Origin: an uncultured Candidatus Cloacimonadota bacterium
GTDB taxonomy: Bacteria > Cloacimonadota > Cloacimonadia > Cloacimonadales > TCS61
Assembly: GCA_964419355.1 (NCBI GenBank)
Contig: CAYQOZ010000001.1
Location: forward strand, 1-54,546
Length of the DNA: 54,546 nucleotides
Direction of reading: 5' to 3'
Each line of letters begins with the position of its first letter. Position 1 is the first letter of the stretch. The notes under the pieces were generated by a model. That model made no database searches, had not been told where the DNA came from, and saw only the letters and a list, made by a program, of their open reading frames with translations. Shown piece after piece: positions 8,360 through 46,242 of the stretch. The position numbers and the translations under genes are program-made.

Positions 8360-8722
8360 ATGATTGTAGAAATTAGTCGTGAACAAGCAGATGAAATGAT
8401 TGCAAGAATTTCAAAATTCATCGTGAATCGAAAGATGGCAGCTCCGGCTATAATAACAATCGAATCTCTTAGACCACTCAGCAGAATAGGAAGTCAATTA
8501 CTACATTTTTTAGCTCCTTTTGCGGAAATTATTTTTAATGCGGAAGAGTATCAAAAATTTGCAATTTTGCTAGAAGATCAGGAAAATATTAAAAAATTAG
8601 TTCAAAAAATTGATGAAATTGATTCAGAAATGTTCCAAAAAGAACGCAAACAAAAAAAACTTCTTAGAAAAAGAAGAAATAATAAAATTAAAAATTTCTT
8701 TAAGTTTAGAAAAAAAAAGTAG
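8360..8722 (+). CDS. Hypothetical protein with a Lys/Arg-rich tail
   Basis: 120-aa ORF ending 17 nt before the GlmL-like start. No recognisable domain. Confidence 0.5.
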   Translation: MIVEISREQADEMIARISKFIVNRKMAAPAIITIESLRPLSRIGSQLLHFLAPFAEIIFNAEEYQKFAILLEDQENIKKLVQKIDEIDSEMFQKERKQKKLLRKRRNNKIKNFFKFRKKK

Positions 8723-8738
8723 TGAGATGGAGGTAGAT

Positions 8739-10613
8739 ATGTCCAAACAACTTCAAAGAATTATCGCAACTGATTGTGGTAGCACAACAACAAAATCAAT
8801 TCTCATTGAATATGTAGATGGTGAATATCGCCAAACTGTTCGTGGTGAAGCTCCCACAACTGTGGAAAAACCTTTGAACGATGTTACGAAAGGTGTCGTA
8901 AATGCCGTAACCGAATTGGAAGAATTGGCTCGTTTGAAATATAACGATAAAAATATAAAATTTATCAAAGATAATACTATCTGGCTTTCCGAAAAAGAGG
9001 GTGAAGGTGTGGACGCTTATGTTTCTACGAGCAGTGCTGGTGGTGGTTTGCAAATGATGGTTACCGGTGTGGTTGCCAAAATGACTGGTGAAAGTGCGGA
9101 ACGTGCTGCTCTCGGAGCTGGTGCAATTGTGATGGACCTTATTGCCAGCAATGATAAACGTGCAAACTATGAAAAAATCGAAAGGATTCGACAGCTGCGA
9201 CCTGATATGATTTTGATGGCTGGCGGTGTAGATGGCGGAACCACTAAACATGTGGCAGAAATGGCAGAACTTGTCGGTGCCGCCGACCCCAAACCAAGGC
9301 TTGGTTCCAGCTACAAACTTCCAATAATTTATGCAGGAAACAACAAAGCACAAAATATCATAAAAGATGTTTTAGAACAGAAAACAGACCTCATTATTAC
9401 AGATAATCTCAGACCAATTTTAGAAAAAGAAAACTTGGGACCTGCACGAGATAAAATTCACGACCTTTTCATGGAACATGTGATGGCACAAGCTCCTGGT
9501 TACAATAAATTGATGAGCTGGACAAAAGGACCAATTGACGACAAGCTACAAAGTATCCCAATTATGCCAACTCCGGCGGCGGTGGGAAATATTATGCAAA
9601 CAATTGCAAATGTGGAAGATATTGAAGTTTTGGGCGTGGATATCGGTGGCGCTACTACTGATATTTTTTCTGTATTTACAGAAGAGAAAATTTTCAATAG
9701 AACAGTAAGTGCAAATCTGGGAATGAGTTACAGTATTTCCAATGTATTAGCAACCGCTGGATTAAAAGAAATCTTACGCTGGGTTCCATTTGATATTGAT
9801 GAGTCCGCTCTTCAAAATATGATTAAAAATAAGATGATTCGCCCAACTACTATTCCGCAAAAATTGGAAGAGCTAATTTTGGAGCAAGCTATTGCCAAAG
9901 AAGCCCTAAAATACGCTTTTATCCAGCATAAAGAATTTGCGGTTGGCTTGAAAGGTGGACAAAGAAAAAAAGATATTTCGGAAGCATTTTCGCAGGACAC
10001 TTCGGGAGCCAGTATTGTGAATATGATGTCGCTCAATCTCTTGGTGGGAAGTGGTGGCGTTCTTTCACACGCCCCTCGCAGACATCAAGCGATGATGATG
10101 ATGATTGATGCATTTTTGCCAGAAGGAATTACACGACTTGCCGTTGATAGCATTTTTATGATGCCTCAACTTGGTGTGTTGGCAGAAATCAGCGAAAAAG
10201 CTGCGACAGAAGTTTTCGAAAAAGATTGTCTTATACATTTAGGAAGTTGCGTAGCTCCGGTTGGAAATATTAGAGCTGGAAAAATTGCACTTTCTGTAAA
10301 AATAGAACTTCCAAACGGAGAAATTTTCCAAGAAAAAATTCCTAAAGGCGAAGTAAGATTGATACCTTTAGGAGTCGATGAAAAAGCCAAAGCAACCTTA
10401 AAACCCGGAAAAGGCTTGGATCTTGGAGAAGGTAAAAATCAAGAAATTGTTACAGAAATTGGTGGTGGCGTGGTTGGAATTATTCTCGATACGCGTGGCA
10501 GACAACCTTTTGAACTGCCTACAGAAACTTCCGAACGCATTCCTCTTCTAAAAAAATGGATTGAAGAATTTATGGCTTATCCAAAAATCATTACCCAGTC
10601 AGGAGGTAAATAA
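8739..10613 (+). CDS. GlmL/MutL-like (EutA/reactivase-like) ASKHA-superfamily ATPase
   Basis: Start set at ATG 8739, preceded by GGAGG at 8729-8733. The ORF-track start at 8610 overlaps the previous gene. ASKHA motifs are ATDCGSTTTKS, GVDIGGATTDIFS and LLVGSGGVLSHAP. Confidence 0.75.
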   Translation: MSKQLQRIIATDCGSTTTKSILIEYVDGEYRQTVRGEAPTTVEKPLNDVTKGVVNAVTELEELARLKYNDKNIKFIKDNTIWLSEKEGEGVDAYVSTSSAGGGLQMMVTGVVAKMTGESAERAALGAGAIVMDLIASNDKRANYEKIERIRQLRPDMILMAGGVDGGTTKHVAEMAELVGAADPKPRLGSSYKLPIIYAGNNKAQNIIKDVLEQKTDLIITDNLRPILEKENLGPARDKIHDLFMEHVMAQAPGYNKLMSWTKGPIDDKLQSIPIMPTPAAVGNIMQTIANVEDIEVLGVDIGGATTDIFSVFTEEKIFNRTVSANLGMSYSISNVLATAGLKEILRWVPFDIDESALQNMIKNKMIRPTTIPQKLEELILEQAIAKEALKYAFIQHKEFAVGLKGGQRKKDISEAFSQDTSGASIVNMMSLNLLVGSGGVLSHAPRRHQAMMMMIDAFLPEGITRLAVDSIFMMPQLGVLAEISEKAATEVFEKDCLIHLGSCVAPVGNIRAGKIALSVKIELPNGEIFQEKIPKGEVRLIPLGVDEKAKATLKPGKGLDLGEGKNQEIVTEIGGGVVGIILDTRGRQPFELPTETSERIPLLKKWIEEFMAYPKIITQSGGK

Positions 10614-11737
10614 TGGCACAAGCATATTCCCCCGGTCTTAAATGCACCGATAATATAATTCTTAAAAAAGAGAGAATCCTTCCGCTAAAAGGAAGAGTAA
10701 TTGTGAAAAAAGGCGATAAAGTAAAAGCAGAAGATGTAGTTGCAGAGACTCGTCTTCCTGGTAAAGTCATTCCTTTTAATCTCGCAAATAAACTTGGCGT
10801 AACGCCAAATTTGGTTCATCAATATCTCAAAGTAAAAAAGGGTGATGAAATTAAAAAAGGACAATTAATTGCACAGACAAACGGATTTTTTGGCTTTTTT
10901 AAGACCTCTGTAAAATCTCCAATTGAAGGTGAGATTGAAAATATTTCCAAAATAACAGGACAGATGTTATTGCGCGAACCACGCATTCCAATTCAGGTGA
11001 AAGCTTTTATTGATGGCATTGTAGTTGAGGTGGTTGAAGAAGAAGGCGTAGTTATAGAAAATAAATCTGCATACATTCAAGGAATTTTTGGCATTAGCGG
11101 AGAGCGTTCAGGAGAGATAAAAATTTTGGTTTCTGCTCCGAATGAGGTAATTGATGTCGCTAAAATAGATGATTCTTGTAAAGACAAAATCATTGTTTGT
11201 GGTGCTCTTATCTCTTACAACGCAATCAAGCAGGCTCAAAAGGTTGGAGTTACGGGTATTATTTCTGGTGGTATTGACGATCGTGATCTCAAAAAATTAC
11301 TTGGTTACAATATTGGCGTTGCCATTACTGGTCATGAAAAAATTGGTTTAACTCTTGTTATTACAGAAGGTTTTGGCGAAATCAAGATGGCAGCAAAAAG
11401 CTTTGAATTGCTAAAAAGATTTGAGGGAGAAAAAGCATCAATTCACGGCATTACTCAAATTAGGGCTGGTGTGATGAGACCTGAAATTATTATCCCTCGA
11501 GAATTTGATGAGAAAGAACTTGTTGCTCCCGAAGATAAAATGGCTACTTTGGAAATCGGAACTACAATTCGTGTGATTCGCCAACCGAATTTTGGATTAA
11601 TCGGAAAAGTTACTGGTTTGCCAGAAAAATTGACAAAAGTAGAGAGTGAGACGATGGTTCGCATTTTAGATGCTGAATTAGAAAATGGTGAGAAAGTTAC
11701 TATTCCAAGGGCAAATGTAGAAGTTATCGAACATTAA
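10613..11737 (+). CDS. Uncharacterised partner protein with N-terminal barrel-sandwich (lipoyl/biotinyl-like) hairpins
   Basis: TAATG overlap with the upstream stop, and AGGAGG at 10601-10606. Motifs KKGDKVKAEDVVAET and VKKGDEIKKGQLIAQT. The C-terminal alpha/beta-like region reads VGVTGIISGGIDD...VITEGFG. Confidence 0.7.
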   Translation: MAQAYSPGLKCTDNIILKKERILPLKGRVIVKKGDKVKAEDVVAETRLPGKVIPFNLANKLGVTPNLVHQYLKVKKGDEIKKGQLIAQTNGFFGFFKTSVKSPIEGEIENISKITGQMLLREPRIPIQVKAFIDGIVVEVVEEEGVVIENKSAYIQGIFGISGERSGEIKILVSAPNEVIDVAKIDDSCKDKIIVCGALISYNAIKQAQKVGVTGIISGGIDDRDLKKLLGYNIGVAITGHEKIGLTLVITEGFGEIKMAAKSFELLKRFEGEKASIHGITQIRAGVMRPEIIIPREFDEKELVAPEDKMATLEIGTTIRVIRQPNFGLIGKVTGLPEKLTKVESETMVRILDAELENGEKVTIPRANVEVIEH

Positions 11738-35097: not shown

Positions 35098-35490
35098 CTA
35101 TTTAATATCCAATCTCACCAAAGCTCGTTTTAGGGCAAATTCTGCTCTACGAAAATTAATATTTTTTTCATTGCTTTTAAGACGTTTTTCTGCTCTCAAT
35201 TTTGCACTTTTTGCACGAGCTTTATCAATTTCAGATTCTTTTTCAATAACCTCAGTTACAATTGTTATTTGATTATTTTCTACTGTTACAAATCCATCGT
35301 GAATTGCGTATTTATCCACTTTTTCACCCTTGTAAAGTAACAAAATTCCTGTTCGTATTTTAGTTACAAATGGAGTGTGGTTTTTAGAAATTCCAAAATC
35401 ACCATCTATTCCAGGAATAATTATGTGGTCGAATTCTCCTTTGATTTTTGTTTTTATTGGCTGAATTACTTCCAATTTTATTTTTGCCAT
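35098..35490 (-). CDS. atpC: F1 ATP synthase epsilon subunit
   Basis: Position is after atpD. IIPGIDGDFGISKNHTPFVT motif, and a size of 130 aa. Confidence 0.88.
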   Translation of the reverse strand: MAKIKLEVIQPIKTKIKGEFDHIIIPGIDGDFGISKNHTPFVTKIRTGILLLYKGEKVDKYAIHDGFVTVENNQITIVTEVIEKESEIDKARAKSAKLRAEKRLKSNEKNINFRRAEFALKRALVRLDIK

Positions 35491-35496
35491 TTTGAA

Positions 35497-36903
<1,407 letters not shown>

Positions 36904-36921
36904 CTATTTTTTTTATTAATT

Positions 36922-37776
36922 TTATTGTTTAATAGCTTCAGCCCCAGAAGCTATCTCAATTATTTCTGTTGTAATCGCCGCTTGTCGTGCTCGATTGTAT
37001 TTAAGCGTAAGCTCGTCAATCAAATCGGCTGCATTTTCGGTGGCAGATTCCATCGCCGTCATGCGTGCACCTTGTTCAGCAGCAGAAGATTCCAACATAA
37101 TTCTCCAAATTTCCACATTAATATATTTTCTTCCCATCTCTTCGATAATCGTATTTTCATCTGGTTCATAAATATAATCCAGTTGGGAAATTTCTTCAGT
37201 ATTAGGTGAAGTGATGGGCAAAAGCTGTTTAGCAACAATGTCTTGCTGAAGAGCAGACTTAAATTCATTATAAATTACATCGATTTTTCTATAATTTTGA
37301 TTTAGAAAAAGATTGATAATTTGATTAGATACATCTTTTGAAATGGAAAAATTCATCTCATTAAATAAACCCAAATATGGTTCAGCAAGCTTATTTGAGC
37401 GTTTTTTTAAATAATCAAATCCTTTTTTTCCAAGACAGATTACATTTGCTTGCGGATTTTTTTTAATATAAATAATTGCTTTTTTGATGATTTGCGAGTT
37501 AAAGCCGCCACAAAGTCCGCGATCTGAGGTTACCACAATAACGGCGGATTTTTTCACATTTTCACGTTCATTCAAAAGAGGATGCGAATTTACTGTATTC
37601 TTTAATTTTATCGAGCGAAGCATCTGGTTAATGTGGTCGGCATACGGGCGAGCTTGCACAATTCTTTCTTGTGCTTTTCGCAAGTTTGCCGCCGCCACCA
37701 TTTTCATTGCATTCGTTATTTGCTTGGTGCTTTTGATGCTCGCAATTCTCGTTTTAATTTCTTTAATGTTTGCCAT
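36922..37776 (-). CDS. atpG: F1 ATP synthase gamma subunit
   Basis: N-terminus IKTRIASIKSTKQITNAMKMVAAA. C-terminus LTLKYNRARQAAITTEIIEI. Confidence 0.93.
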   Translation of the reverse strand: MANIKEIKTRIASIKSTKQITNAMKMVAAANLRKAQERIVQARPYADHINQMLRSIKLKNTVNSHPLLNERENVKKSAVIVVTSDRGLCGGFNSQIIKKAIIYIKKNPQANVICLGKKGFDYLKKRSNKLAEPYLGLFNEMNFSISKDVSNQIINLFLNQNYRKIDVIYNEFKSALQQDIVAKQLLPITSPNTEEISQLDYIYEPDENTIIEEMGRKYINVEIWRIMLESSAAEQGARMTAMESATENAADLIDELTLKYNRARQAAITTEIIEIASGAEAIKQ

Positions 37777-37803
37777 TAAATCCTCTAAATTACTTCTCCA
37801 AAA

Positions 37804-39303
37804 TTAAAGTTTTTCCATAACTTTCTTACAGATATTTTCCATCTCTTTTTTGATTTTATCAGTGATTTTTTCCTCAATTAATTTAGTCGCAAAGTCTTTA
37901 TATTGAGAATCTAACGTCGAGAACAGCTCTTCTTCCACTTTCTGAATATCCTTATTTTCCACTTTGTCCAAATAGCCTTCATTCGCCATAAAAATAATCA
38001 TAATCTGTTTTGCAACGGGAAGCGGTTCATATTGACCTTGTTTCAAAATTTCAATTAATCTCTCTCCGCGACGGAGTTGAGCCTGAGTTGCTTCGTCAAG
38101 ATCGGAACCAAATTTGGAAAATGCTTCCAACTCGGCATATTGAGCAAGTGCTAATCGAAGCTGACCAGTTACGCCTTTCATCGCTTTAATTTGAGCGCTT
38201 CCACCCACTCGCGAAACAGAAAGACCAGCATTAATGGCGGGTCGAATTCCAGAGTAAAATAGCCTAGAACTTAAATAAATTTGCCCATCTGTGATTGAAA
38301 TCACATTTGTGGGAATATAGGCAGTAATGTCGTCCGCTTGTGTCTCAATAATTGGAAGTGCTGTTAATGAACCTCCACCCTCTTCCTTGCTAAGTTTGGA
38401 AGCTCTTTCCAGAAGTCTTGAATGTAGATAAAAAACATCACCTGGATAAGCTTCGCGACCAGGAGGTCTTCTGAGAAGTAATGACAATTCGCGATAAGCA
38501 ACTGCTTGCTTGGAAAGATCATCATAAATAATAAGAGCGTGTTGACCTTTATCGCGGAAATATTCCCCAATTGTACAACCAGAAAACGGAGCCAAATATT
38601 GTAACGAAGCAGATTCGGAAGCAGAAGCAGAAACAACGATAGAATAATCCATTGCTTGATGTTCTTCTAAAACTTTCACTATTTTTGCAATCGATGATTT
38701 TTTTTGCCCAATTGCAACATAAACGCAAATCACATCAGTATCTTTTTGATTAATAATTGTATCTATTGCGATTGCTGTTTTTCCAGTTTGACGGTCGCCA
38801 ATAATAAGTTCACGCTGTCCTCGTCCAATCGGAATCATTGAATCAATTGCTTTAATTCCCGTTTGAAGTGGTTCTTTTACAGGTTGCCTTTGGATAATGC
38901 CAAGAGCTTTTCTTTCTACTGGTTCTTGTCTTTCAGCGACAATTTCGCCTTTTCCGTCAATTGGTTGACCTAATGCATTTACCACTCGCCCCAACATTTT
39001 TTCACCTACTGGAACCTGTAAAATTCGTTTGGTTCTTTTGGCAATATCACCTTCTTTAATTTTATGCGATTCTCCAAAAATAATGCAACCTACATTATCT
39101 TCTTCCAAATTAAGGGCCATTCCTACAACGCCACCCGGAAACTCTATCATCTCACCAGCCATTATGTTGTCCATTCCGTAAATACGGGCAATTCCGTCAC
39201 CTACCTGCACAACTTTTCCGGTTTCTGCTACATCAATTTCAAATTTGAAATTGCTTATTTTTTCTTTTAAGATCGAACTTATTTCATCCGGTTGAATTCT
39301 CAT
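37804..39303 (-). CDS. atpA: F1 ATP synthase alpha subunit
   Basis: Walker [16 protein letters not shown], plus [33 protein letters not shown]. Confidence 0.95.
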
Positions 39304-39310
39304 ATTAACC

Positions 39311-39847
39311 TCATTTTATGAAATTTTGTTTAAATTTTTCTAAGTTATTTTTCACCGAGCCGTCAATCTGCATAGATTCGGTCTCCGCTATAAATCCACC
39401 AATTATTTCAGGTTTTATTTTAATGTCCAAAATTACCTCTTTTTTTAATATCTTTTTAATTTGGGATTTAATGTTTTCAATGGTTTCCCCAGATTGCTGA
39501 TGAGCTACTTTCAAAATAACTTTTGTTGTGTTGGAAGCATCTAAAATTAAGTGCTCCAAGTCGTTGATTATAATTAAAATAATGGAAAATTTGTGCCGTT
39601 CTATTAAAAGGTCAAACAGATTTTTCCAAATATCTTTATTCTGAAGTTCTGCCGCGATTGAATCTGCAAAAGCAATTTTTTTATCTATCGAAATTAAATA
39701 AGAATCAGTCTCTTTTGATAGACTTTTATTTTCATTAAATAGAGACCTAATTGCAACAATATCTTGAAGATAGGAGTTGTAATCATTGTTTTTAATGCTT
39801 TTAAAAACAGCCAAAGAGTAACGGCGAGCAATCAAAATATTTTTCAC
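39311..39847 (-). CDS. atpH: ATP synthase delta (OSCP) subunit
   Basis: Lies between atpF and atpA. Size is 178 aa. C-terminus reads [22 protein letters not shown]. Confidence 0.8.
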
Positions 39848-40326
39848 TTTTTGCCCCGTTCTGCAATAATTCCTTTTATTAATTCTTTATCTTTATCGTC
39901 ATTAATTTTATCGCTGAGAAATTTTCCAGATAAATCTGAAACCATATTTGCCAACTCACTTTCCAATTTTTGCAAAGTTTTTACTTTCTCGTGTTCCAGT
40001 TGGGCTTCGGTATCTTTCAAAATTCTTTTTTCCTTATTTTTTGCTTCTTTTAGAATTTCGGTCGCTTTACTTTCCGCATCACGACGAGAATTTTGCTTCA
40101 TTTTTCTAATTTCTTCAGTCGATGCTTTTAGTTCTTTCCCGCGTTTAGAAACCAGCTTTTCTGCATCTTCGCGTGATTTTTTTGCACCGTCCATGTCGGC
40201 AACAATCGTTTGTTTTCGTTCTTCTAAAAACTTTTTGATTGGTTTGTAGAGAATTTTATTCAATACTGCCATTAGTACAATAAAATTTAAAATAACAATA
40301 ATTAAAGTATAATCTATACTTATCAT
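39844..40326 (-). CDS. atpF: ATP synthase Fo b subunit
   Basis: Single N-terminal TM followed by a long charged helix. Canonical operon position. Confidence 0.82.
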   Translation of the reverse strand: MISIDYTLIIVILNFIVLMAVLNKILYKPIKKFLEERKQTIVADMDGAKKSREDAEKLVSKRGKELKASTEEIRKMKQNSRRDAESKATEILKEAKNKEKRILKDTEAQLEHEKVKTLQKLESELANMVSDLSGKFLSDKINDDKDKELIKGIIAERGKK

Positions 40327-40388: not shown

Positions 40389-40634
40389 TTAGGTCGAAAA
40401 TATCAAAAGCAACGCAATAACAAGCGAATAGATACCTGTAGATTCCGATACCGCCTGCCCAACAAGCATTGTCCTGGTTATTAAACTGGCATTTTCAGGT
40501 GAACGTGCAATTCCTTCACAAGCCTTTCCAGCCACAAAACCCTCACCAACTCCGGGTCCAAGTGCACCCATTCCCATACATAATCCAGCGCCTAAAAGTG
40601 CTGATGCTTTTACGATTCCATCTGCTAATTCCAT
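40389..40634 (-). CDS. atpE: ATP synthase Fo c subunit (single hairpin, Na+-type motif)
   Basis: [12 protein letters not shown]...ARSPEN...[23 protein letters not shown] is near-identical to the Ilyobacter/Fusobacterium Na+ c-subunit signature. E31 is GAG at 40542-40544 and E64 is GAA at 40443-40445. Confidence 0.92.
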
Positions 40635-40663
40635 TTTTCCTCCGTTTATTTCTTTATGTTTTT

Positions 40664-41419
40664 TTACACTGCAAAAATTAATAAGAATGCTACTACTAAA
40701 GAATAGATAGCTGTTGATTCTGAAACTGCGGCTCCGAGAAACATTGTTCTCATTAGTTTGCCTTTTTCGTTTGGAAATCTGCCTATCATATCATTCGCTT
40801 TTCCAGCTACAAAGCCAATGCCTGTTCCGGGTCCAATTGTTCCAAAACCAATGGAAAAGCCTGCTCCGATAAAAGCGAGAGATTTAATTAAAATTCTGCC
40901 GAGAGAAATATCTACAGGTTGATCTGGTGTAGAATATAATAAAAGAAGTGATACTACAAGTGCAAAAATCGCTGAAGTTTGTGCCAGCGCTTGTCCGATT
41001 AACATATTGCCCATAATAGCATTTCCGTGCTTTGGCATTCTTGCAACCGATTTACAAGCTTCTCCACCAGAATATCCGGCACCCAAGGAAGGACCGAGAG
41101 ACCCAATTCCCATTGCAATTCCTGCAGATAAAAGTGCTGCTGCTTTGAACCAACCTCCTTCTGCTGTGTCGAATCCGCCGTAAATGAGTAGCATCGAAAT
41201 TACTAATGCAAAAATCCCGGCTGTCTGTGCAGCTGCTTGTCCGATGAGCATTGTTCTAAACATTTGGTCGTTCGATTCAGGTTGTTTCATAATCCCCAGA
41301 GATCCTTCGCCGGCAATTATTCCCGATCCAATTCCAGTCGTTATTGCTCCCATTCCAACACAAAGTCCTGCACCTAAATAGGATGCGACGCGAATATATT
41401 CTACTGATAAAATCATCAT
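40664..41419 (-). CDS. Triplicated Fo c-subunit (three fused hairpins, six predicted TM helices, one carboxylate)
   Basis: Start set at ATG 41419, one nt after the atpB stop, with GGAG upstream. Three c-like hairpins have loops KQP, RMP and RFP. The helix-2 ion-site residue is Q65, Q147 and E234. Confidence 0.85.
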
Positions 41420-41420
41420 T

Positions 41421-42347
41421 TTACTCCGAAATTTCCACGCCAATATAAGTCAATGCAAGCATTGTAAATACAAAGGCTTGAATAGTTCCTACAAACATTC
41501 CAAAAAATAGGTTTAATCCAACCGGGAAAATTATAAATTTGACGAGTGATGAAACCACTAAAATTATAATTGCTCCACCTAAAATATTACCGAAAAGTCG
41601 GAAAGAAATGGATACGACCTTGGAAAGTTCACCAATTATATCAAGCAGGAAAAGTGGATTTTTTACTGGATTTACATATTGCTGTAAATGCCCCCAAAGT
41701 CCTTTCACGCGAATTGCAGTGGAATGAACGACCACAACAGCGACGATACCTAATCCAAGTGGAACATTTAAATTTCTGGTTGGTTCCATAAAACCGGGAA
41801 TCGGAATCATTCCTATCATGTTACATGCCCAAATAAAAATGAAAAGCGTAACAATGTATGGGGTAAAATGGACTTTTTCTTTTCCCAATGTTTCGCATAC
41901 AAAATCTTCCAAACCTGTATAGACTAATTCGAAAATAATTTGTGGTTGCGATGGTTTTTTGAATAGATTTTTTCTTATTAAGAAAGCTAAAAATAACAAT
42001 ATTAAATCCACAATTAACAACATTCTAATTAATTGGAAAGCTCCTAAAGCCGTGCTGTCTCCGGCTATCGTAAATATTTTAAAAAATTTGTATATTTTAT
42101 TGCTTCTATAAATTTTGATTTCATCTTTTTTCAGATTTTTCTGTTTTATATATTCATCTGGTTGAAATTCTTCGGTGATTTTTTCCTGCAAATCAAAGTG
42201 GCTTTTCACATTATGAAAGACAAATTTTCCATCATCGAAACCGATTTTTAATTGTTTACTAAAATTACCTGATATAACTACAAAAGCAATTTCAATAACC
42301 ATTACAATTAAAAAAATCTTTAATAATGGATTTTTCTTCTTTACCAC
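41421..42347 (-). CDS. atpB: ATP synthase Fo a subunit
   Basis: Conserved Arg motif SISFRLFGNILGG. Multi-TM. Operon position. Confidence 0.9.
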   Translation of the reverse strand: MVKKKNPLLKIFLIVMVIEIAFVVISGNFSKQLKIGFDDGKFVFHNVKSHFDLQEKITEEFQPDEYIKQKNLKKDEIKIYRSNKIYKFFKIFTIAGDSTALGAFQLIRMLLIVDLILLFLAFLIRKNLFKKPSQPQIIFELVYTGLEDFVCETLGKEKVHFTPYIVTLFIFIWACNMIGMIPIPGFMEPTRNLNVPLGLGIVAVVVVHSTAIRVKGLWGHLQQYVNPVKNPLFLLDIIGELSKVVSISFRLFGNILGGAIIILVVSSLVKFIIFPVGLNLFFGMFVGTIQAFVFTMLALTYIGVEISE

Positions 42348-42348
42348 T

Positions 42349-42729
42349 TTATCCCCTAAAATATTTACTTTTTTTTATATTTTTATAAGCTTCATATAAA
42401 TAAACTATAATCTGAATAGAGAGCAACCCCAACCCAAAAAAAATTATCTCTAATTCAATAAAAAACAACAGTAACAGAGAATAAACAGCCAAAGCTCCCG
42501 TTCTTAAAAAAGACCCTTTAACTGCTACTAATTTGGTTTTGGTTGCCCGAAACTGTAAACTTTTTCTAATATTTTTTGCCAGCCACAAAAAATTAATAAC
42601 ACTTGCAAACGAACCTAATATAAAACTTAGAGCTACTTTCCAAAACCACGGCAAACTCAAGATTACAGCTATGTTTGTCAAGATAATAATAGTAATAATT
42701 TTTTTAATATATTTAGGATTATCTATCAT
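42349..42729 (-). CDS. atpI: ATP synthase protein I
   Basis: 126-aa four-TM protein immediately upstream of atpB. Confidence 0.65.
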   Translation of the reverse strand: MIDNPKYIKKIITIIILTNIAVILSLPWFWKVALSFILGSFASVINFLWLAKNIRKSLQFRATKTKLVAVKGSFLRTGALAVYSLLLLFFIELEIIFFGLGLLSIQIIVYLYEAYKNIKKSKYFRG

Positions 42730-42753: not shown

Positions 42754-42984
42754 CTATTTAGTCTTTTCATAAAATTTTTTTAGTAATCTGTAGCTTGAAA
42801 ATAATCCTAAAATAACACCCAATAAAATGCCAACCAATAATAAAATTCCATTTGTTTGGAATTTTTTATCCAAAAATAAAAATATAAAAAAGATGATTAG
42901 TATAGAACCAATCATCGTTGAGCCAAGCTGTGAAATCAAGCTGATATTTAATAACAATTCTTTATTTAATTTTTGTTTCAACAT
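42754..42984 (-). CDS. AtpZ/AtpR-like small membrane protein
   Basis: 76 aa, two TM helices, first gene of the atp cluster. Confidence 0.55.
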   Translation of the reverse strand: MLKQKLNKELLLNISLISQLGSTMIGSILIIFFIFLFLDKKFQTNGILLLVGILLGVILGLFSSYRLLKKFYEKTK

Positions 42985-43354
42985 TTGTTTTTTCCGCTTG
43001 TAAAATATTTTTTTGTTTTTCTTTCATTGTGCTGGAACCATTAAAGATTGCACCTGAATGGATTTTGAAAATTTTTGCAGTGATGTCTCCAGAAACATTG
43101 GATGTTTCATCAAGCTCTATTGCTTCTTCCACGCTTAAATTGCCAACAACTTTACCAGAAACTAAACATTCTTCTGCTTTAATATTTGCTTTAATTATTG
43201 CCGATTTGCCAATAGTTACAAAACCGTTGGATTCTATTGTGCTACCTTCTATTTCTCCATCAATGCGTATTCCGCCCATAATTTCCATTGAACCATTTAT
43301 AATAGTTCCTTTTCCGATAATTGTAGAGAGTTCAATTTTTCTGTTTCTTGCCAT
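42962..43354 (-). CDS. Bactofilin (polymer-forming cytoskeletal protein)
   Basis: Beta-helix repeat pattern IIGKGTIINGSMEIMGGIRIDGEIEGSTIESNGFVTIGKSAIIKANIKAEECLVSGKVVGNL. Confidence 0.85.
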   Translation of the reverse strand: MARNRKIELSTIIGKGTIINGSMEIMGGIRIDGEIEGSTIESNGFVTIGKSAIIKANIKAEECLVSGKVVGNLSVEEAIELDETSNVSGDITAKIFKIHSGAIFNGSSTMKEKQKNILQAEKTNVETKIK

Positions 43355-43364
43355 TTTTTCTCCG

Positions 43365-44027
43365 TTATTTAAATACTTTCTCCGGATTTATATTTTTGCC
43401 ATCAACTAAAATTTCAAAATGCAGATGTGGGGCGGAACTATTGCCAGAATTTCCCACGTTTGCAATAATCTCACCCTTATTCACAAATGCATTTTCTTCC
43501 ACAAAAATTTGTGCAAGATGTGCATAAACTGTGGCATATTTATTTAGGTGATCGATTATTAATATATTTCCAAAATATTCGTCAGTATATTTTGCAACTA
43601 CCTTTCCACTTCCAGCTGCAATTACAGCACCACCGTGCGGAGACGCAAAATCTAATCCAGTATGTAATTGAGTGAAATGTTGACTAATAGAATATTCTTC
43701 TTTGATAGGAATATTATCGGGAATAAATTCTGATAAATTACGTTTTTCCCAATTTGAATTTTTAATTTTTTCCAAACTAATATTATTTTTAATTGAATCT
43801 TTTACTTCCAAATTTTCTAAGTAATTTTTCAAAATATCCCTAATTTCTTTTGGGTTAGTGTCTATCTCGTTTTTCACTAAATTAGAAAGTTGTTCGTTTT
43901 TTTTCAGAGAAATATTAAGTTCATTTTGTTTCTGTAAAATAGTTTTTTTTAGATTAATAATTTGGTTTATTAAAATCAACAAAACAACGAATATAACAAC
44001 AATTAACAATATATTTTTTTTAATCAT
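43365..44027 (-). CDS. M23 (LytM-domain) peptidase with N-terminal TM and coiled coil
   Basis: HTGLDFASPHGGAVIAAGSGKVV and GNSGNSSAPHLHFEI. Confidence 0.85.
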   Translation of the reverse strand: MIKKNILLIVVIFVVLLILINQIINLKKTILQKQNELNISLKKNEQLSNLVKNEIDTNPKEIRDILKNYLENLEVKDSIKNNISLEKIKNSNWEKRNLSEFIPDNIPIKEEYSISQHFTQLHTGLDFASPHGGAVIAAGSGKVVAKYTDEYFGNILIIDHLNKYATVYAHLAQIFVEENAFVNKGEIIANVGNSGNSSAPHLHFEILVDGKNINPEKVFK

Positions 44028-44868
44028 TTTTTCCTTTTAATATATAAAAAAGTTTCAAAAATTTCTCTTCAGAATCATAATACAAACTTATTTTTCCATT
44101 AGATTTTTTACCAGTTATTGATGTTTTGATTTTCAAATAGTTCGACAATTGCTTTTCATAATCGCTAAAATCTATTTTTTCTACTTGTTTTTGTTTAGCA
44201 ATATAACCAATTTTTTTTATTTGTTTTGCAGCTTGTTCTGTTTTACGTACAGAAAGTTTTTTTTCGATAATAAATTCAGCAAATTTGTGATGCAATGATT
44301 TATCAATTTGAAGGATAGCCCTTGCATGTCCAGTAGTTAAAATTTTATCTAAAATTAATTGTTGAATTTCATCATCCAAATTTAAAAGCCTAATCAAGTT
44401 TGAAACTGTTGCTCTGTCTTTTCCAACTATTTTTGCTATTTGAATGTGAGTTAGTTCAAAATCTTTATTTAATTGCTGATATGCTTTTGCTTCTTCCATT
44501 GAATTCAAATCTTCTCGTTGCACATTTTCAATAATTGCAAGTTGCAGTTGCTGTTTAGGAGATACGCTACGAATAATTACAGGAATATTTTCAAAACCAG
44601 CAATTTTAGAGGCTTCTAACCTTCTTTCTCCAGCAATCAATTCATATTGAGTTTCATTTTTTTTGGTTACAATAATTGGCTGAATTATGCCACTTTCTCT
44701 TAATGAATTAGAAAGCTCCTGAAGTTTTTGTGGATCAATTTTTTTTCGAGGCTGATATTTATTTGGAATAATTTGATCTATTTTTACGGTTGTAATTCCG
44801 GTAGTTTTATCAGTAGATTCCACACCAGAATTAATTAATGCACTCAAACCTCTGCCTAATTTATTCAT
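44020..44868 (-). CDS. parB: Chromosome partitioning protein ParB/Spo0J
   Basis: GRGLSALI, IQPIIV, ELIAGERRLEASK, and the HTH IAKIVGKDRATVSNLIRLL. Confidence 0.92.
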   Translation of the reverse strand: MNKLGRGLSALINSGVESTDKTTGITTVKIDQIIPNKYQPRKKIDPQKLQELSNSLRESGIIQPIIVTKKNETQYELIAGERRLEASKIAGFENIPVIIRSVSPKQQLQLAIIENVQREDLNSMEEAKAYQQLNKDFELTHIQIAKIVGKDRATVSNLIRLLNLDDEIQQLILDKILTTGHARAILQIDKSLHHKFAEFIIEKKLSVRKTEQAAKQIKKIGYIAKQKQVEKIDFSDYEKQLSNYLKIKTSITGKKSNGKISLYYDSEEKFLKLFYILKGKND

Positions 44869-45620
44869 CTTATCATCACTTCCTTTGCTAAATTCAAATA
44901 ATTTTTTGCTCCACGAGATTTAATGTCATAATGAAATATAGATTTTCCAAAACTAGGAGCTTCACTTAATTTTACGCTTCTGTGAATAATTGTATTAAAA
45001 ACTTGTTCTTGAAAATATCTTCTTACCTCTTTAGCAACCTGTTGCGAAAGATTCAATCTTCTATCATATAAAGTTAACACAATTCCTAAAATATTTAACT
45101 CTTTATTTAGATTTTTTTTTATTAATCGAATTGTATTAATTAGCTGGCTTACTCCTTCTAATGCATAATATTCACATTGAATTGGAATAATTATATCACT
45201 ACAAGCTGAAAGTGCATTTACCGTAAGAAGTCCAAGAGACGGCGGACAATCAATTAGAATATATTCGTAATTATCCTGCACTTTTTTAATTATTTTTTTT
45301 AATTTATATTCACGAGAATATTCTTTTACTAACTCAATTTCAGCTCCACTTAATTCCATATTGGAAGGTAAAATATCCAACTTTTCTAAAACAGGAGATT
45401 GCTTAATTACATCTTTTATTGATTTTTTTTCAATCAACGCTTCATAAACATTAGGATTTTTTTTTTCTACACCAGTTCCACTAGATGCATTTCCTTGAGG
45501 ATCAAAATCTATGAGTAATGTTTTTTTTTCAAAAATAGCTAAAGCTGATGCCAAATTTATAGCAGTAGTAGTTTTTCCAACTCCACCTTTTTGATTAACT
45601 ATTGCAATTATTTTACTCAT
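44865..45620 (-). CDS. parA: Chromosome partitioning ATPase ParA/Soj
   Basis: Deviant Walker A IVNQKGGVGKTTTAINLA. 4-nt overlap with parB. Confidence 0.93.
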   Translation of the reverse strand: MSKIIAIVNQKGGVGKTTTAINLASALAIFEKKTLLIDFDPQGNASSGTGVEKKNPNVYEALIEKKSIKDVIKQSPVLEKLDILPSNMELSGAEIELVKEYSREYKLKKIIKKVQDNYEYILIDCPPSLGLLTVNALSACSDIIIPIQCEYYALEGVSQLINTIRLIKKNLNKELNILGIVLTLYDRRLNLSQQVAKEVRRYFQEQVFNTIIHRSVKLSEAPSFGKSIFHYDIKSRGAKNYLNLAKEVMIR

Positions 45621-45627
45621 AAAATTC

Positions 45628-46242
45628 CTATTTTTTTATCTGAATTATTTTTCTAATTCCTAATTCTGGATGACTTATATTGAATATTTTAACTTTTTCA
45701 AATTGCTCAATATCATCCATTTTTTTACTTTTATAAAGAATAATTTTTCCATTATTTTTTAACAATTTCAACATTCTTTTCTTAAATATTGGTAATATTT
45801 TTACAGAACGACAAACTATTAAATCGAAGGAATTAAACCATTTTTCATCCATTTCTTCGAGTCGTGAAACAATCGTGAAACACGCTTTTAAGTCAAGTTT
45901 TTTAATGATATTTTTTACAGCAATCATTTTTTTTTGTCGTGAATCCAATAGATAAATTTCTGAGGAAGGAAATAATATTTTTAGAGGAATTCCAGGTAAT
46001 CCTCCACCAGTTCCAAAATCAAGAATTTTTTTGTTTGAAAAATCAATGTGCAAAATTGGTAAAATGGAATCAAAATAATGCCGAATCCAATATTCTTCCT
46101 TTTTGGTTTTGCGGGAAATTAAGTTTACTTTACTGTTTTCTTCCCACAAAAATTGATGAAATTTATCAAATTTAATAATTATTTTTTCACTCTTTTTGGG
46201 AAAATTTTCTATAACAAATTTTTTAAATATTTTTTTATTCAT
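45628..46242 (-). CDS. rsmG: 16S rRNA (guanine527-N7)-methyltransferase RsmG (GidB)
   Basis: SAM motif ILDFGTGGGLPGIPLKILFP. Position next to parA. Confidence 0.88.
   Translation of the reverse strand: MNKKIFKKFVIENFPKKSEKIIIKFDKFHQFLWEENSKVNLISRKTKKEEYWIRHYFDSILPILHIDFSNKKILDFGTGGGLPGIPLKILFPSSEIYLLDSRQKKMIAVKNIIKKLDLKACFTIVSRLEEMDEKWFNSFDLIVCRSVKILPIFKKRMLKLLKNNGKIILYKSKKMDDIEQFEKVKIFNISHPELGIRKIIQIKK

What the first reader, a model, noticed from the sequence alone, without database searches (positions are those of the whole stretch)
40664..41419. Triplicated F-type c subunit: three fused hairpins with only one ion-binding glutamate
One uninterrupted 251-codon ORF lies between atpB and the normal atpE and encodes three consecutive c-subunit hairpins. 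Each has a Gly-rich helix 1 ([30 protein letters not shown]), a polar loop (KQP, RMP, RFP) and a helix 2.

The helix-2 ion-binding position differs between hairpins:
- Hairpin 1 has Gln ([12 protein letters not shown] at 41225-41227).
- Hairpin 2 has Gln ([12 protein letters not shown] at 40979-40981).
- Hairpin 3 has Glu within the full Na+ motif ([12 protein letters not shown] at 40718-40720).

Known precedents are the duplicated c1 of Acetobacterium woodii, which has one site per two hairpins and forms a hybrid ring with the 8-kDa c2/c3. Triplicated or multiplied proteolipids occur in some archaeal A-type enzymes.

I am not aware of a described bacterial F-type c subunit with three hairpins and two silenced sites. 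The operon order (atpI-B-c3x-E-F-H-A-G-D-C) mirrors that of A. woodii. A mixed ring would have fewer ion sites per hairpin, which alters the ion/ATP ratio.
Basis: partly seen in the sequence, partly recalled or inferred. Interest (0 to 1): 0.75.

Follow-up and report, generated by a model that had tools for sequence, protein, structure and literature searches.

The report
Three-hairpin ATP synthase rotor subunit
The ATP synthase operon of an uncultured Cloacimonadota bacterium encodes a conserved rotor protein made of three fused c subunits, two of which have lost the ion-carrying glutamate, so the rotor probably carries fewer sodium ions per turn than its size suggests; I found no published description of this, and it extends the one known bacterial "hybrid rotor".

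Summary
Window 40664-41419 (-) is one 251-codon ORF with three PF00137 hairpins. It lies between atpB and a normal 81-aa atpE in a complete F1Fo operon. The ion-site residues are Gln65, Gln147 and Glu234.

It is not an artefact:
- The identical protein occurs on four metagenome contigs.
- 22 Cloacimonadota species genomes have the same c3x-plus-monomer gene pair.
- dN/dS is about 0.05-0.08 for every hairpin.
- AlphaFold gives six helices at pLDDT 94.

It belongs to a larger family that I did not find described. Members have 3, 4 or 5 hairpins and 0-3 carboxylates. They occur in Cloacimonadota and Desulfobacterota, including cultured Desulfococcus multivorans, and in each of the 26 loci inspected a one-hairpin c gene with a two-carboxylate Na+ motif follows.

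Its Ser-Thr-Tyr most likely complete the neighbouring monomer's site, so Glu234 sits in a degraded site.

Most likely function: a mostly silent spacer in a mixed c-ring that lowers the Na+/ATP ratio. Ring composition is untested.

Verdict: a new variant of the Acetobacterium woodii-type hybrid rotor, which arose independently of it. Interest 0.72.

The parts
40664..41419 (-). c3x: 251-aa (25.6 kDa) triple-hairpin F-type c subunit. The stop codon is at 40664-40666.
   Evidence: ORF. Three PF00137 stretches, E = 6e-43. AlphaFold2 model with pLDDT 94.4 shows six long helices. The 100% identical P0001 is on 4 contigs.
41162..41419 (-). Hairpin 1 (residues 1-86). Ser32 stands in place of the helix-1 ligand and Gln65 (CAG 41225-41227) in place of the carboxylate, within the motif AAQTA..F. 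This hairpin is silent.
   Evidence: Q at this position in 21 of 22 species loci. dN/dS 0.061.
40910..41161 (-). Hairpin 2 (residues 87-170). It has Ala114 and Gln147 (CAA 40979-40981), within the motif LAQTS..F. This hairpin is silent. Gln147 is nearly invariant across the family.
   Evidence: dN/dS 0.053. The second hairpin is Q in almost all multi-hairpin relatives.
40667..40909 (-). Hairpin 3 (residues 171-251). It has Ile201 (ATT 40817-40819) and Glu234 (GAA 40718-40720), followed by Ser235, Thr236 and Tyr239. It keeps a carboxylate but has no helix-1 ligand. Its Ser/Thr/Tyr face is inferred to complete the site of the next subunit.
   Evidence: It is 55% identical to the monomer c, the closest of the three hairpins. 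dN/dS 0.079.
40389..40634 (-). Single-hairpin c subunit (81 aa, 8.0 kDa) carrying Glu32, Glu65, Ser66, Thr67 and Tyr70. This is the two-carboxylate Na+ motif of Fusobacterium nucleatum. The gene has a strong Shine-Dalgarno sequence (GGAGG).
   Evidence: PF00137, 4.9e-18. Alignment to 3zk1_A and 1yce_A. Motif description in PMC3692424. Present after c3x in all 22 informative loci.
41421..42347 (-). atpB, the a subunit (308 aa). It has the essential Arg in RLFGN (Arg250) and an N-terminal extension of about 80 aa.
   Evidence: PF00119, 1e-42. Motif.
42349..42729 (-). atpI (126 aa), the c-ring assembly factor family.
   Evidence: PF03899, 1.2e-08.
42754..42984 (-). ATPase gene1 / AtpZ-like small membrane protein (76 aa).
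   Evidence: PF09527, 6.9e-12.
39844..40326 (-). atpF, the b subunit (160 aa).
   Evidence: PF00430, 4.1e-20.
39311..39847 (-). atpH, the delta subunit (178 aa). Its presence marks a canonical F-type operon rather than an N-ATPase operon.
   Evidence: PF00213, 2.2e-29.
35098..39303 (-). F1 genes: alpha (37804-39303), gamma (36922-37776), beta (35497-36894) and epsilon (35098-35490).
   Evidence: Pfam PF00006, PF00231, PF02823 and PF00401.

Best explanation
c3x is a genuine rotor (c-ring) subunit of a Na+-coupled F1Fo ATP synthase. It co-assembles with the single-hairpin c encoded immediately downstream into a heteromeric ring and occupies three adjacent hairpin positions.

**Site by site**
- Hairpins 1 and 2 carry Gln instead of the carboxylate and have no helix-1 ligand. 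They bind no coupling ion.
- Hairpin 3 keeps Glu234, but the site is degraded. Position 32 is Ile201. The partner face comes from hairpin 2, which offers Thr148 but has Phe152 where Tyr70 would be.
- Ser235/Thr236/Tyr239 of hairpin 3 complete the full two-carboxylate Na+ site of the monomer that follows it in the ring.

**Consequence.** Each c3x removes two sites, or functionally three, without shrinking the ring. For an assumed 11-hairpin ring:

| c3x per ring | monomers | sites | Na+/ATP |
|---|---|---|---|
| 0 | 11 | 11 | 3.67 |
| 1 | 8 | 8-9 | 2.67-3.0 |
| 2 | 5 | 5-7 | 1.67-2.33 |

A lower ratio makes each ATP cost fewer ions in synthesis. In hydrolysis it lets ATP build a steeper Na+ gradient.

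**Status of each step**
- Shown: the sequence anatomy, its conservation, the selection on it, the gene linkage and the fold.
- Inferred: co-assembly, Na+ as the coupling ion, the half-site assignment, ring size and copy number.
For: 1. **Three bona fide c hairpins in a complete F1Fo operon,** between a and c. The model has pLDDT 94.4 and short periplasmic linkers. The best solved match is the A. woodii hybrid-rotor subunit c1, 4bem_J.
2. **Conserved and selected.** The c3x-plus-monomer pair is present in 22 of 22 informative Cloacimonadota species loci with the same site pattern. dN/dS is 0.05-0.08 in silent and active hairpins alike.
3. **Some relatives have no carboxylate at all.** Relatives at 77-86% identity carry QQQ or GQQ, and for one of them (L027, QQQ) the locus was inspected and is the same syntenic operon, followed by a monomer c. 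Such proteins can only work if monomers supply the sites.
4. **Half-site pattern.** Na+ sites are built from residues 32 and 65 of one hairpin plus residues 63, 66 and Tyr70 of the adjacent one (PMC3692424). In E. hirae NtpK the Thr comes from hairpin 1 and Gln/Glu from hairpin 2, so the partner face comes from the preceding hairpin (PMC2359735). Across multi-hairpin proteins (each pair gives the 50% representatives, then the set):
   - Last hairpins keep Tyr70 with a carboxylate (53/55; 87/88) and without one (39/51; 29/30).
   - Last hairpins rarely keep E/Q32.
   - First hairpins that have a carboxylate keep E/Q32 (65/88; 52/63) and almost never have Tyr70 (1/88; 0/63).
   - Hairpin 1 of this c3x is dead, so the conserved Ser-Thr-Tyr of hairpin 3 only makes sense next to a monomer.
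5. **The monomer carries the Na+ motif.** It has the F. nucleatum Na+ motif E32/E65/S66/T67/Y70.
6. **Translation signals fit a minority component.** Monomer genes have strong SD sequences. The multi-hairpin genes have weak or no SD and start 1-9 nt after the atpB stop.
7. **Precedent.** The A. woodii ring has nine one-hairpin c and one two-hairpin c1, giving 10 sites in 11 hairpins, and the enzyme synthesises ATP (PMC9171764; PMC3604715).
Against: - There are no protein-level data for any member: no proof of expression, of presence in the ring, or of stoichiometry.
- In Bacillus PS3 single-chain c10, one E56Q abolished ATP synthesis (PMC8809890). Two or three consecutive ion-less hairpins might stall an F-type motor unless the a subunit or the Gln residues compensate.
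- Ring size (11) is only an analogy with I. tartaricus, F. nucleatum and A. woodii.
- Glu234 could still be a working site, for Na+ or H+. It is strictly kept in the 21 closest species.
- The half-site argument rests on sequence statistics from related, non-independent proteins. A direct neighbour-correlation test restricted to proteins with silenced hairpins was uninformative.
Confidence: 0.7

Rival explanations
1. c3x forms a homo-oligomeric ring on its own, for example four copies giving 12 hairpins and 4 Glu. This would be an alternative, very high-gear rotor that replaces the monomer ring under some conditions (isoform switching).
For: Archaeal A-type enzymes use rings made only of multi-hairpin c subunits (PMC9171764; PMC2359735). 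The window's c3x does keep one Glu per chain.
Against: - Close relatives have no carboxylate at all and, where the locus was inspected (L027), sit in the same operon. They could not form a working homomeric ring.
- Ser-Thr-Tyr of hairpin 3 is conserved although it would face the dead hairpin 1 of the next c3x.
- Both genes sit in one operon with no sign of separate regulation.
- 1.33 Na+/ATP is too low for ATP synthesis at normal driving forces (arithmetic; thermodynamic argument in PMC13053071).
Confidence: 0.07
2. c3x is not a working rotor element. It might act as an assembly nucleus or ring-size template that is later excluded. It might be a stator-side or unrelated membrane protein. It might be a decaying paralogue.
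For: Two of three catalytic residues are lost. No expression data exist. Assembly of c-rings is known to need helpers such as AtpI (PMC4154653).
Against: - dN/dS of 0.05-0.08 rules out decay.
- All three hairpins keep the Gly-rich packing motif and the polar loop with its conserved Pro, which are features of ring and F1 contact.
- AtpI and gene1 are already present for assembly.
- The end-specific half-site conservation is only expected for a protein that sits in the ring next to active hairpins.
- A. woodii c1, the nearest solved relative, is in the ring.
Confidence: 0.1
3. The enzyme, or at least the hairpin-3 site, is H+-coupled or of mixed specificity. Glu234 in its Ile/Phe-lined pocket would then carry H+ while the monomer sites carry Na+, or the whole ring would use H+.
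For: H+ sites are simpler and more hydrophobic than Na+ sites (PMC3692424). Hairpin 3 has Ile at position 32, and its partner face has Phe at position 70. From my own knowledge, E. coli has Ile28 at the position equivalent to Gln32.
Against: - The monomer has every residue of the F. nucleatum Na+ site.
- Cloacimonadota MAGs encode Rnf, and some also encode Nqr; the Ace Lake study predicted the F-type enzyme to be Na+-dependent (PMC8542988; PMC12590816).
- Selectivity cannot be read from sequence alone.
Confidence: 0.1
4. This is an assembly, frameshift or gene-calling artefact, and the region really holds three separate c genes.
For: None was found. It is only a prior possibility for metagenome-derived sequence.
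Against: - The same uninterrupted ORF is on 4 contigs.
- It is in 22 species-representative genomes.
- It is in about 100 clusters at 90% identity.
- It is in a complete genome of a cultured bacterium in the 4-hairpin form.
- The linkers contain no stop or start signals.
Confidence: 0.01

Closest known systems
Acetobacterium woodii F1Fo hybrid rotor, made of c1 (two hairpins, 18 kDa) plus c2/c3 (PDB 4BEM). The same arrangement occurs in Clostridium aceticum.
   Same: - It is a fused multi-hairpin c encoded directly after atpB and before a one-hairpin Na+-type c in an F-type operon.
- The silent hairpin carries Glu->Gln (the motif Q....QT).
- The last hairpin keeps Thr/Thr/Tyr while the first hairpin has Phe at position 70.
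- It is the best sequence and fold match.
   Different: - A. woodii c1 has two hairpins and one silent site. Here there are three hairpins and two adjacent silent sites.
- In c1 the first hairpin is active and keeps Gln32. Here the first is dead and only the last keeps a Glu, without the position-32 ligand.
- Origin is independent. Both c1 hairpins group with Firmicute and Fusobacteria monomers in 98.5% of bootstraps.
- The monomer here has the two-carboxylate motif (E32), not Q32.
Multi-hairpin c subunits next to a monomer c in Desulfobacterota. Examples are Desulfococcus multivorans CP015381.1 (323 aa, EQEE) and a Desulfobacteraceae MAG JAIPDS010000001.1 (404 aa, EQQQQ). They are annotated only as 'ATP synthase F0 subunit C'.
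   Same: - They share the Fo module gene1-atpI-a-cN-c-b.
- The second hairpin is Gln.
- The last hairpin keeps Ser-Thr-Tyr.
- The monomer c is 71-74% identical to the window's, and the a subunit is 49% identical.
- They are the next-best database hits after Cloacimonadota.
   Different: - They have four or five hairpins.
- The first hairpin is usually active (E32/E65).
- The Fo genes are separated from the F1 genes.
- The a subunit lacks the N-terminal extension.
- A common origin of the first hairpins has only 47% bootstrap support.
Archaeal A1Ao multi-hairpin proteolipids: Methanocaldococcus jannaschii (triplicated), Methanopyrus kandleri (13 hairpins) and Pyrococcus (V-type c).
   Same: Hairpins are fused into one chain and there are fewer ion sites than hairpins (PMC9171764; PMC2359735).
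   Different: - Those are A/V-type enzymes with homomeric rings. NCBIfam V-type K models score far below their cut-offs here (for example 66 vs 211 bits).
- From my own knowledge (Ruppert et al. 1999), M. jannaschii keeps two of its three carboxylates.
- The protein here sits in an F-type operon, has a monomer partner and keeps one carboxylate.
Fusobacterium nucleatum c11 ring with the two-carboxylate Na+ motif (PDB 3ZK1).
   Same: The window's monomer c has Glu32, Glu65, Ser66, Thr67 and Tyr70 in the same register, at 59% identity.
   Different: The F. nucleatum ring is homomeric with 11 identical sites. There is no multi-hairpin partner.
Engineered single-chain c-rings of Bacillus PS3 (Mitome et al.).
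   Same: The hairpins are covalently fused and the sites are selectively impaired. Impaired sites are least harmful when adjacent (PMC8809890). Adjacent silent sites are exactly what a fused silent block gives.
   Different: The construct is artificial and H+-coupled. A single E56Q abolished ATP synthesis there, whereas nature keeps 2-5 Gln hairpins here.

Membership tests
F-type ATP synthase subunit c (Pfam PF00137 / TIGR01260) | A helical-hairpin domain that matches the family model above its threshold | tested here: met
   PF00137 scores 145.4 bits against a cut-off of 24, in three stretches. TIGR01260 scores 106.9 against 43.95.
F-type ATP synthase subunit c (Pfam PF00137 / TIGR01260) | Encoded in an F1Fo operon between the a and b genes | tested here: met
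   The order is gene1-I-a-c3x-c-b-delta-alpha-gamma-beta-epsilon.
F-type ATP synthase subunit c (Pfam PF00137 / TIGR01260) | One hairpin of about 70-90 aa with a helix-2 carboxylate in every hairpin | tested here: not met
   The protein has three hairpins in 251 aa. A carboxylate is present only in hairpin 3. Gln65 and Gln147 stand in hairpins 1 and 2.
A. woodii-type c1 subunit of an F/V hybrid rotor | A multi-hairpin c in an F-type operon with at least one Glu->Gln silenced hairpin | tested here: met
A. woodii-type c1 subunit of an F/V hybrid rotor | A one-hairpin Na+-motif c gene lies immediately downstream | tested here: met
   Seen in the window and in 22 of 22 informative loci.
A. woodii-type c1 subunit of an F/V hybrid rotor | Exactly two hairpins with an active first and a silent second (Q..ET / Q..QT) | tested here: not met
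   There are three hairpins. The first and second are silent and the third has Glu.
A. woodii-type c1 subunit of an F/V hybrid rotor | Common descent with A. woodii c1 (the same duplication event) | tested here: not met
   In an NJ tree on 72 columns, both c1 hairpins form a clade with A. woodii c2, I. tartaricus and F. nucleatum in 98.5% of 200 bootstraps. This clade is separate from all hairpins of this family. The alignment is short, so the result is indicative only.
A. woodii-type c1 subunit of an F/V hybrid rotor | Physically co-assembled with monomers in one ring (9:1 in A. woodii) | not testable with these tools
   This needs purification with MS or cryo-EM. The only support here is indirect: the half-site conservation and the carboxylate-free relatives.
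Archaeal/V-type multi-hairpin proteolipid (subunit K/c) | Matches V/A-type K models and lies in an A1Ao/V1Vo operon | tested here: not met
   NCBIfam V-type K models score 66/211, 58/188 and 40/108 bits (score/cut-off), all far below threshold. The operon is F-type and includes OSCP/delta.
N-ATPase (alternate F1Fo) c subunit, TIGR03322 | Score above the model cut-off, and an N-type operon (atpDCQRBEFAG, with no delta) | tested here: not met
   The score is 130.2 against a cut-off of 130.85, and that only by summing three hairpins. The monomer scores 67.2. Delta is present and the gene order is canonical.
Two-carboxylate Na+-binding c subunit (F. nucleatum type), applied to the partner monomer | Glu32, Glu65, Ser66, Thr67 and Tyr70 in register | tested here: met
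   Alignment to 3zk1_A. Motif definition in PMC3692424. Actual Na+ binding was not tested.

The most novel reading that the evidence does not exclude
Cloacimonadota and Desulfobacterota may possess a modular family of 'spacer' rotor subunits, with 3-5 fused hairpins carrying 0-3 carboxylates. These would be inserted among Na+-binding monomers in F-type c-rings.

If so, these motors routinely rotate runs of 2-5 consecutive ion-less hairpins past the a subunit. They would work at Na+/ATP ratios at or below the lowest known for any F-type enzyme (2.7 or less).

The gear ratio would be retuned over short evolutionary distances by single Glu<->Gln codon changes. QQE, QQQ, EQE, EQQ and GQE all occur within one phylum.
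Probability: 0.5. Interest if true: 0.85.

Novelty: new variant of a known kind. Interest (0 to 1): 0.72.

Why it matters
The ion/ATP ratio of ATP synthase is normally set by ring size. The only characterised bacterial F-type exception is the A. woodii hybrid rotor, which has one silent site in eleven hairpins.

A conserved three-hairpin subunit with two or three silent sites implies that energy-limited anaerobes tune the gear ratio in much larger steps. So do its relatives with 4-5 hairpins and with no carboxylate at all.

It also implies that an F-type motor tolerates long ion-less arcs. This conflicts with the finding that one E->Q kills the Bacillus PS3 enzyme. It therefore bears directly on how the a subunit and c-ring ratchet works.

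The question is now testable. Desulfococcus multivorans is cultured and carries the 4-hairpin form. The A. woodii enzyme has already been produced from a plasmid in E. coli (PMC9171764).

It also matters for modelling ATP yields of fermenters and syntrophs in digesters and sediments. These operons are currently annotated simply as 'F-type ATP synthase'.

Tried and rejected
- **Assembly or frameshift artefact.** Rejected because of conservation.
- **N-ATPase or V/A-type membership.** Rejected on scores and operon content.
- **Orthology with A. woodii c1.** Rejected by the hairpin tree.
  - The same tree gives only weak support (47%) for a common origin of the first hairpins of the 3x, 4x and 5x proteins.
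  - It gives none (5-11%) for monophyly of the internal hairpins. The link between Cloacimonadota and Desulfobacterota therefore rests on synteny and on monomer and a-subunit identity.
- **Fisher test of 'carboxylate in hairpin k+1 vs Tyr70 in hairpin k'.** Significant over all proteins (OR 29) but driven by all-Glu proteins. It was uninformative among proteins with silenced hairpins. I replaced it with the positional tabulation and the E. hirae structure statement.
- **Naming the 50%-identity representative clusters.** Two cluster look-ups gave almost no taxonomy.
- **Unreadable papers.** Brandt & Mueller 2015 (the hybrid-rotor review) and Matthies et al. 2014 are not held. A prior mention there cannot be excluded.
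- **Model coordinates.** The tools do not expose them, so I could not measure distances around Glu234.
- **dS.** It is near saturation (median about 1.6, with many saturated pairs). The dN/dS values are therefore approximate. The low dN (about 0.1) is the robust part.
Full report
**1. The observation**

Window 40664-41419 on the minus strand is one uninterrupted ORF of 251 codons. Its ATG (41419) lies one base after the stop of the a-subunit gene. Pfam PF00137 (ATP-synt_C) matches it in three separate stretches (E = 6e-43). The 81-aa ORF just downstream (40389-40634) matches once.

Cut into three, the pieces align with each other and with the monomer without internal gaps.

| Residue | Codon | Coordinates |
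|---|---|---|
| Gln65 | CAG | 41225-41227 |
| Gln147 | CAA | 40979-40981 |
| Glu234 | GAA | 40718-40720 |

The surrounding genes form a complete canonical F1Fo operon. The order is gene1 (PF09527), atpI, a, c3x, c, b, delta, alpha, gamma, beta, epsilon. The a subunit has the essential Arg in RLFGN.

**2. It is real and under selection**

- The identical protein (P0001) is encoded on four JGI metagenome contigs of up to 76 kb, with the same neighbours.
- A scan of one genome per species found 23 loci, all Candidatus Cloacimonadota MAGs. The closest named genus is Ca. Tenebribacter from Ace Lake.
- In all 22 loci with enough sequence, a 250-251-aa three-hairpin gene is followed directly by an 81-91-aa one-hairpin c gene.
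- In 21 of them the site pattern is the window's. Hairpins 1, 2 and 3 read S|AAQTA..F, A|L[AS]QTS..F and I|VSEST..Y, and the monomer reads E|VSEST..Y.
- Pairwise dN/dS is 0.061, 0.053 and 0.079 for hairpins 1, 2 and 3. dS is near saturation, but dN is only about 0.1. The silent hairpins are constrained as strongly as the one with Glu.
- AlphaFold2 on a 61-sequence alignment gives pLDDT 94.4 and pTM 0.88. The model has six long helices joined by two short linkers, at residues 81-85 and 163-172.
- Foldseek against the PDB finds A. woodii c1 (4bem_J) first, then V-type proteolipids. No solved chain covers more than two of the three hairpins; query-normalised TM-score is at most 0.58.

**3. A wider family**

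Among the best 120 database hits (clusters at 90% identity), I read the residue at the carboxylate position of each hairpin:

| Hairpins | Pattern (count) | Source |
|---|---|---|
| 3 | QQE (37, the window's type), EQE (37), EQQ (11), GQE (6), QQQ (5), GQQ (5), EEE (1) | Cloacimonadota where named |
| 4 (322-325 aa) | EQEE, EQQE | Desulfococcus and metagenomes |
| 5 (399-408 aa) | EQQQQ, EQQQE, QQQQQ | Desulfobacteraceae, Desulfarculaceae |

- In the complete genome of cultured Desulfococcus multivorans (CP015381.1) the module is gene1-atpI-a-c4x-c-b'-b.
- A Desulfobacteraceae MAG has the same module with a five-hairpin gene.
- A Cloacimonadota MAG (L027) has the window's exact synteny, from gidB-parAB through the atp operon, but its c3x is QQQ with no carboxylate at all. 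A monomer follows it too.
- The window's monomer c is 71-74% identical to the Desulfobacterota monomers. It is 59% identical to F. nucleatum c and 53% to A. woodii c2. The a subunits are 49% identical.
- An exhaustive search of 1.84 billion 50%-identity representatives found 68 clusters at E < 1e-30, with 2, 3, 4, 5, 7, 8, 11 or 14 hairpins. The second hairpin is Gln in the great majority of those that have any silenced hairpin.

**4.

In Na+ c-rings each site lies between two hairpins. One hairpin supplies Gln/Glu32 and Glu65. The adjacent hairpin supplies the backbone O of residue 63 and Ser66. Tyr70 and Ser66 hydrogen-bond to Glu65, and Thr67 holds a water (PMC3692424).

In the two-hairpin E. 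hirae NtpK, the ligands are Thr64 from hairpin 1 and Gln110/Glu139 from hairpin 2 (PMC2359735). The Ser/Thr/Tyr face therefore comes from the preceding hairpin.

The window's hairpins read as follows:

| Hairpin | 32 | 63 | 65 | 66 | 67 | 70 |
|---|---|---|---|---|---|---|
| 1 | Ser | Ala | Gln | Thr | Ala | Phe |
| 2 | Ala | Leu | Gln | Thr | Ser | Phe |
| 3 | Ile | Val | Glu | Ser | Thr | Tyr |
| monomer | Glu | Val | Glu | Ser | Thr | Tyr |

So Glu234 has no helix-1 ligand. Its partner face, from hairpin 2, has Thr but lacks Tyr. Ser235/Thr236/Tyr239 of hairpin 3 would serve whatever follows c3x in the ring.

This reading is backed by a position-specific pattern over all multi-hairpin proteins that have at least one silent hairpin. 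Each pair of counts gives the 50% representatives first and the set second.

- Last hairpins keep Tyr70 with a carboxylate (53/55; 87/88) and without one (39/51; 29/30).
- Last hairpins seldom keep E/Q32.
- First hairpins with a carboxylate keep E/Q32 (65/88; 52/63) and almost never have Tyr70 (1/88; 0/63).
- Internal hairpins have lost both features.

A. woodii c1 fits the same rule. Its hairpin 1 has Q32/E65/F70 and its hairpin 2 has Q65/T66/T67/Y70. Complete sites are thus built across subunit boundaries, and the interior of the fused block decays.

Hairpin 1 of the window's c3x is dead. The strict conservation of Ser-Thr-Tyr in hairpin 3 therefore implies that its neighbour is a monomer c, which means a heteromeric ring. 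This is inference from sequence statistics, not a structural measurement.

**5. Most likely mechanism**

c3x is a rotor subunit that takes three adjacent places in a ring otherwise made of the two-carboxylate Na+-binding monomer. It contributes two certainly silent positions and one degraded site.

By analogy with the c11 rings of I. tartaricus and F. nucleatum and the 11-hairpin ring of A. woodii, I assume 11 hairpins. One c3x then gives 8 complete sites plus Glu234, or 2.67-3.0 Na+/ATP. Two give 1.67-2.33. A monomer-only c11 ring gives 3.67, and A. woodii has 3.3.

Weak, translationally coupled starts on the multi-hairpin genes contrast with strong Shine-Dalgarno sequences on the monomer genes. 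This fits c3x being the minority component.

The physiological sense is the one argued for V-type c subunits. A low ion/ATP ratio lets organisms with small ion budgets and low phosphorylation potentials still make ATP. In reverse, it lets ATP build a larger gradient (PMC9171764). Cloacimonadota are fermenters with Rnf, and some also have Nqr; the Ace Lake study predicted the F-type enzyme to be Na+-dependent (PMC8542988; PMC12590816). I cannot tell which direction dominates.

**6. What argues against this, and the rivals**

- There is no protein-level evidence.
- One E56Q abolishes ATP synthesis in single-chain c10 of Bacillus PS3. The same work shows that impaired sites are least harmful when adjacent (PMC8809890).
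- **Homomeric c3x ring.** This is unlikely because carboxylate-free relatives occupy the same locus, and because hairpin 3's partner face would be wasted.
- **Non-rotor or decaying protein.** This is unlikely given dN/dS, the conserved packing and loop motifs, and the end-specific half-site pattern.
- **H+ or mixed coupling at Glu234.** This stays open.
- **Artefact.** This is excluded.

**7. Comparison with what is known**

It works like the A. woodii/C. aceticum c1 subunit but is not a member of that lineage. Both c1 hairpins group with the A. woodii, I. tartaricus and F. nucleatum monomers in 98.5% of bootstraps. Cloacimonadota hairpins 1, 2 and 3 are each monophyletic, with 79%, 92% and 98% support.

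It differs from c1 in four ways:
- hairpin number (3 vs 2);
- number and adjacency of silent sites (2 vs 1);
- which end is active;
- the monomer's motif (E32 vs Q32).

It is not V/A-type and not an N-ATPase. Archaeal triplicated proteolipids (PMC2359735) are A-type and form homomeric rings.

Ten full-text searches and the Cloacimonadota and Desulfobacteraceae genome papers I read mention only an 'F-type ATP synthase'. A 2026 paper from the Mueller laboratory still describes F1Fo c subunits as single hairpins. I could not read the 2015 hybrid-rotor review or the 2014 structure paper, so an earlier listing cannot be ruled out.

**8. Verdict**

- Novelty: a new variant of a known kind.
- Interest: 0.72.
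- Reasons: a specialist would be surprised by two to five consecutive silent hairpins in an F-type rotor and by the evolutionary lability of the carboxylates. A cultured carrier makes the ion/ATP gearing question directly testable.

Noticed in passing
window 40389-40634 (-): The ordinary one-hairpin c has Glu at the helix-1 ligand position as well as Glu65/Ser66/Thr67/Tyr70. This is the two-carboxylate Na+ motif so far characterised in Fusobacterium nucleatum. It is conserved in all 22 Cloacimonadota loci and in the Desulfobacterota monomers.
   Followed up: yes
L027 8001-9030 (NPIE01000003.1, Cloacimonadota MAG): This locus has the same synteny as the window, but its c3x has Gln in all three hairpins and so no carboxylate at all. 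A normal monomer c follows it. QQQ and GQQ forms occur in 10 of the best 120 clusters.
   Followed up: yes
L025 9001-10295 (Desulfococcus multivorans CP015381.1); L026 6001-7503 (Desulfobacteraceae MAG): Four-hairpin (EQEE) and five-hairpin (EQQQQ) c genes each sit in a gene1-atpI-a-cN-c-b'-b module without F1 genes nearby. An earlier paper noted an 'ectopic duplicated Fo' in Desulfococcus oleovorans without mentioning hairpin number (PMC4154653).
   Followed up: partly
proteins P0174, P0165, P0210/P0282: These are single polypeptides in which every hairpin keeps Glu. One has 7 hairpins (524 aa, Candidatus Gracilibacteria RAL57769.1). One has 11 (968 aa, unnamed, 12 members, contigs up to 155 kb). 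One has 14 (1139-1147 aa, Promethearchaeota/Hodarchaeota MAGs). They may be whole or half c-rings in one chain, like the 13-hairpin protein of Methanopyrus kandleri.
   Followed up: no
window 41421-42347 (-): The a subunit is 308 aa. It carries an N-terminal extension of about 80 aa that includes a hydrophobic stretch. L027's a subunit is also long (296 aa), but the 224-aa a subunits next to the Desulfobacterota 4x and 5x genes are not.
   Followed up: no
window 41414-41430 and 40635-40650; L025, L026, L027 gene starts: Multi-hairpin c genes start 1-9 nt after the atpB stop, behind weak or absent Shine-Dalgarno sequences. The monomer c genes all have GGAGG-type sites. This suggests lower synthesis of the fused subunit.
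   Followed up: partly
about 22 proteins among P0181-P0269, e.g. P0186, P0199, P0206: This is a large separate group of four-hairpin proteins of about 320 aa, only 25-33% identical to c3x. Their pattern is E-Q-E-D, with Asp in the last hairpin. One is annotated 'ATP synthase F0 subunit C [bacterium]' (MBT4594869.1). Their taxonomy is unknown.
   Followed up: no
window 8610-11737 (+): A gene for a 667-aa PF13941 'MutL protein' family member is followed by a 374-aa protein with a weak match to the RnfC N-terminal barrel domain. This may be an amino-acid fermentation accessory pair. It is unrelated to the finding.
   Followed up: no
window 42962-46242 (-): The atp operon lies directly downstream of rsmG(gidB)-parA-parB-M23 peptidase-bactofilin. 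The same arrangement occurs in L027, so the operon sits in the conserved par/gid neighbourhood.
   Followed up: no
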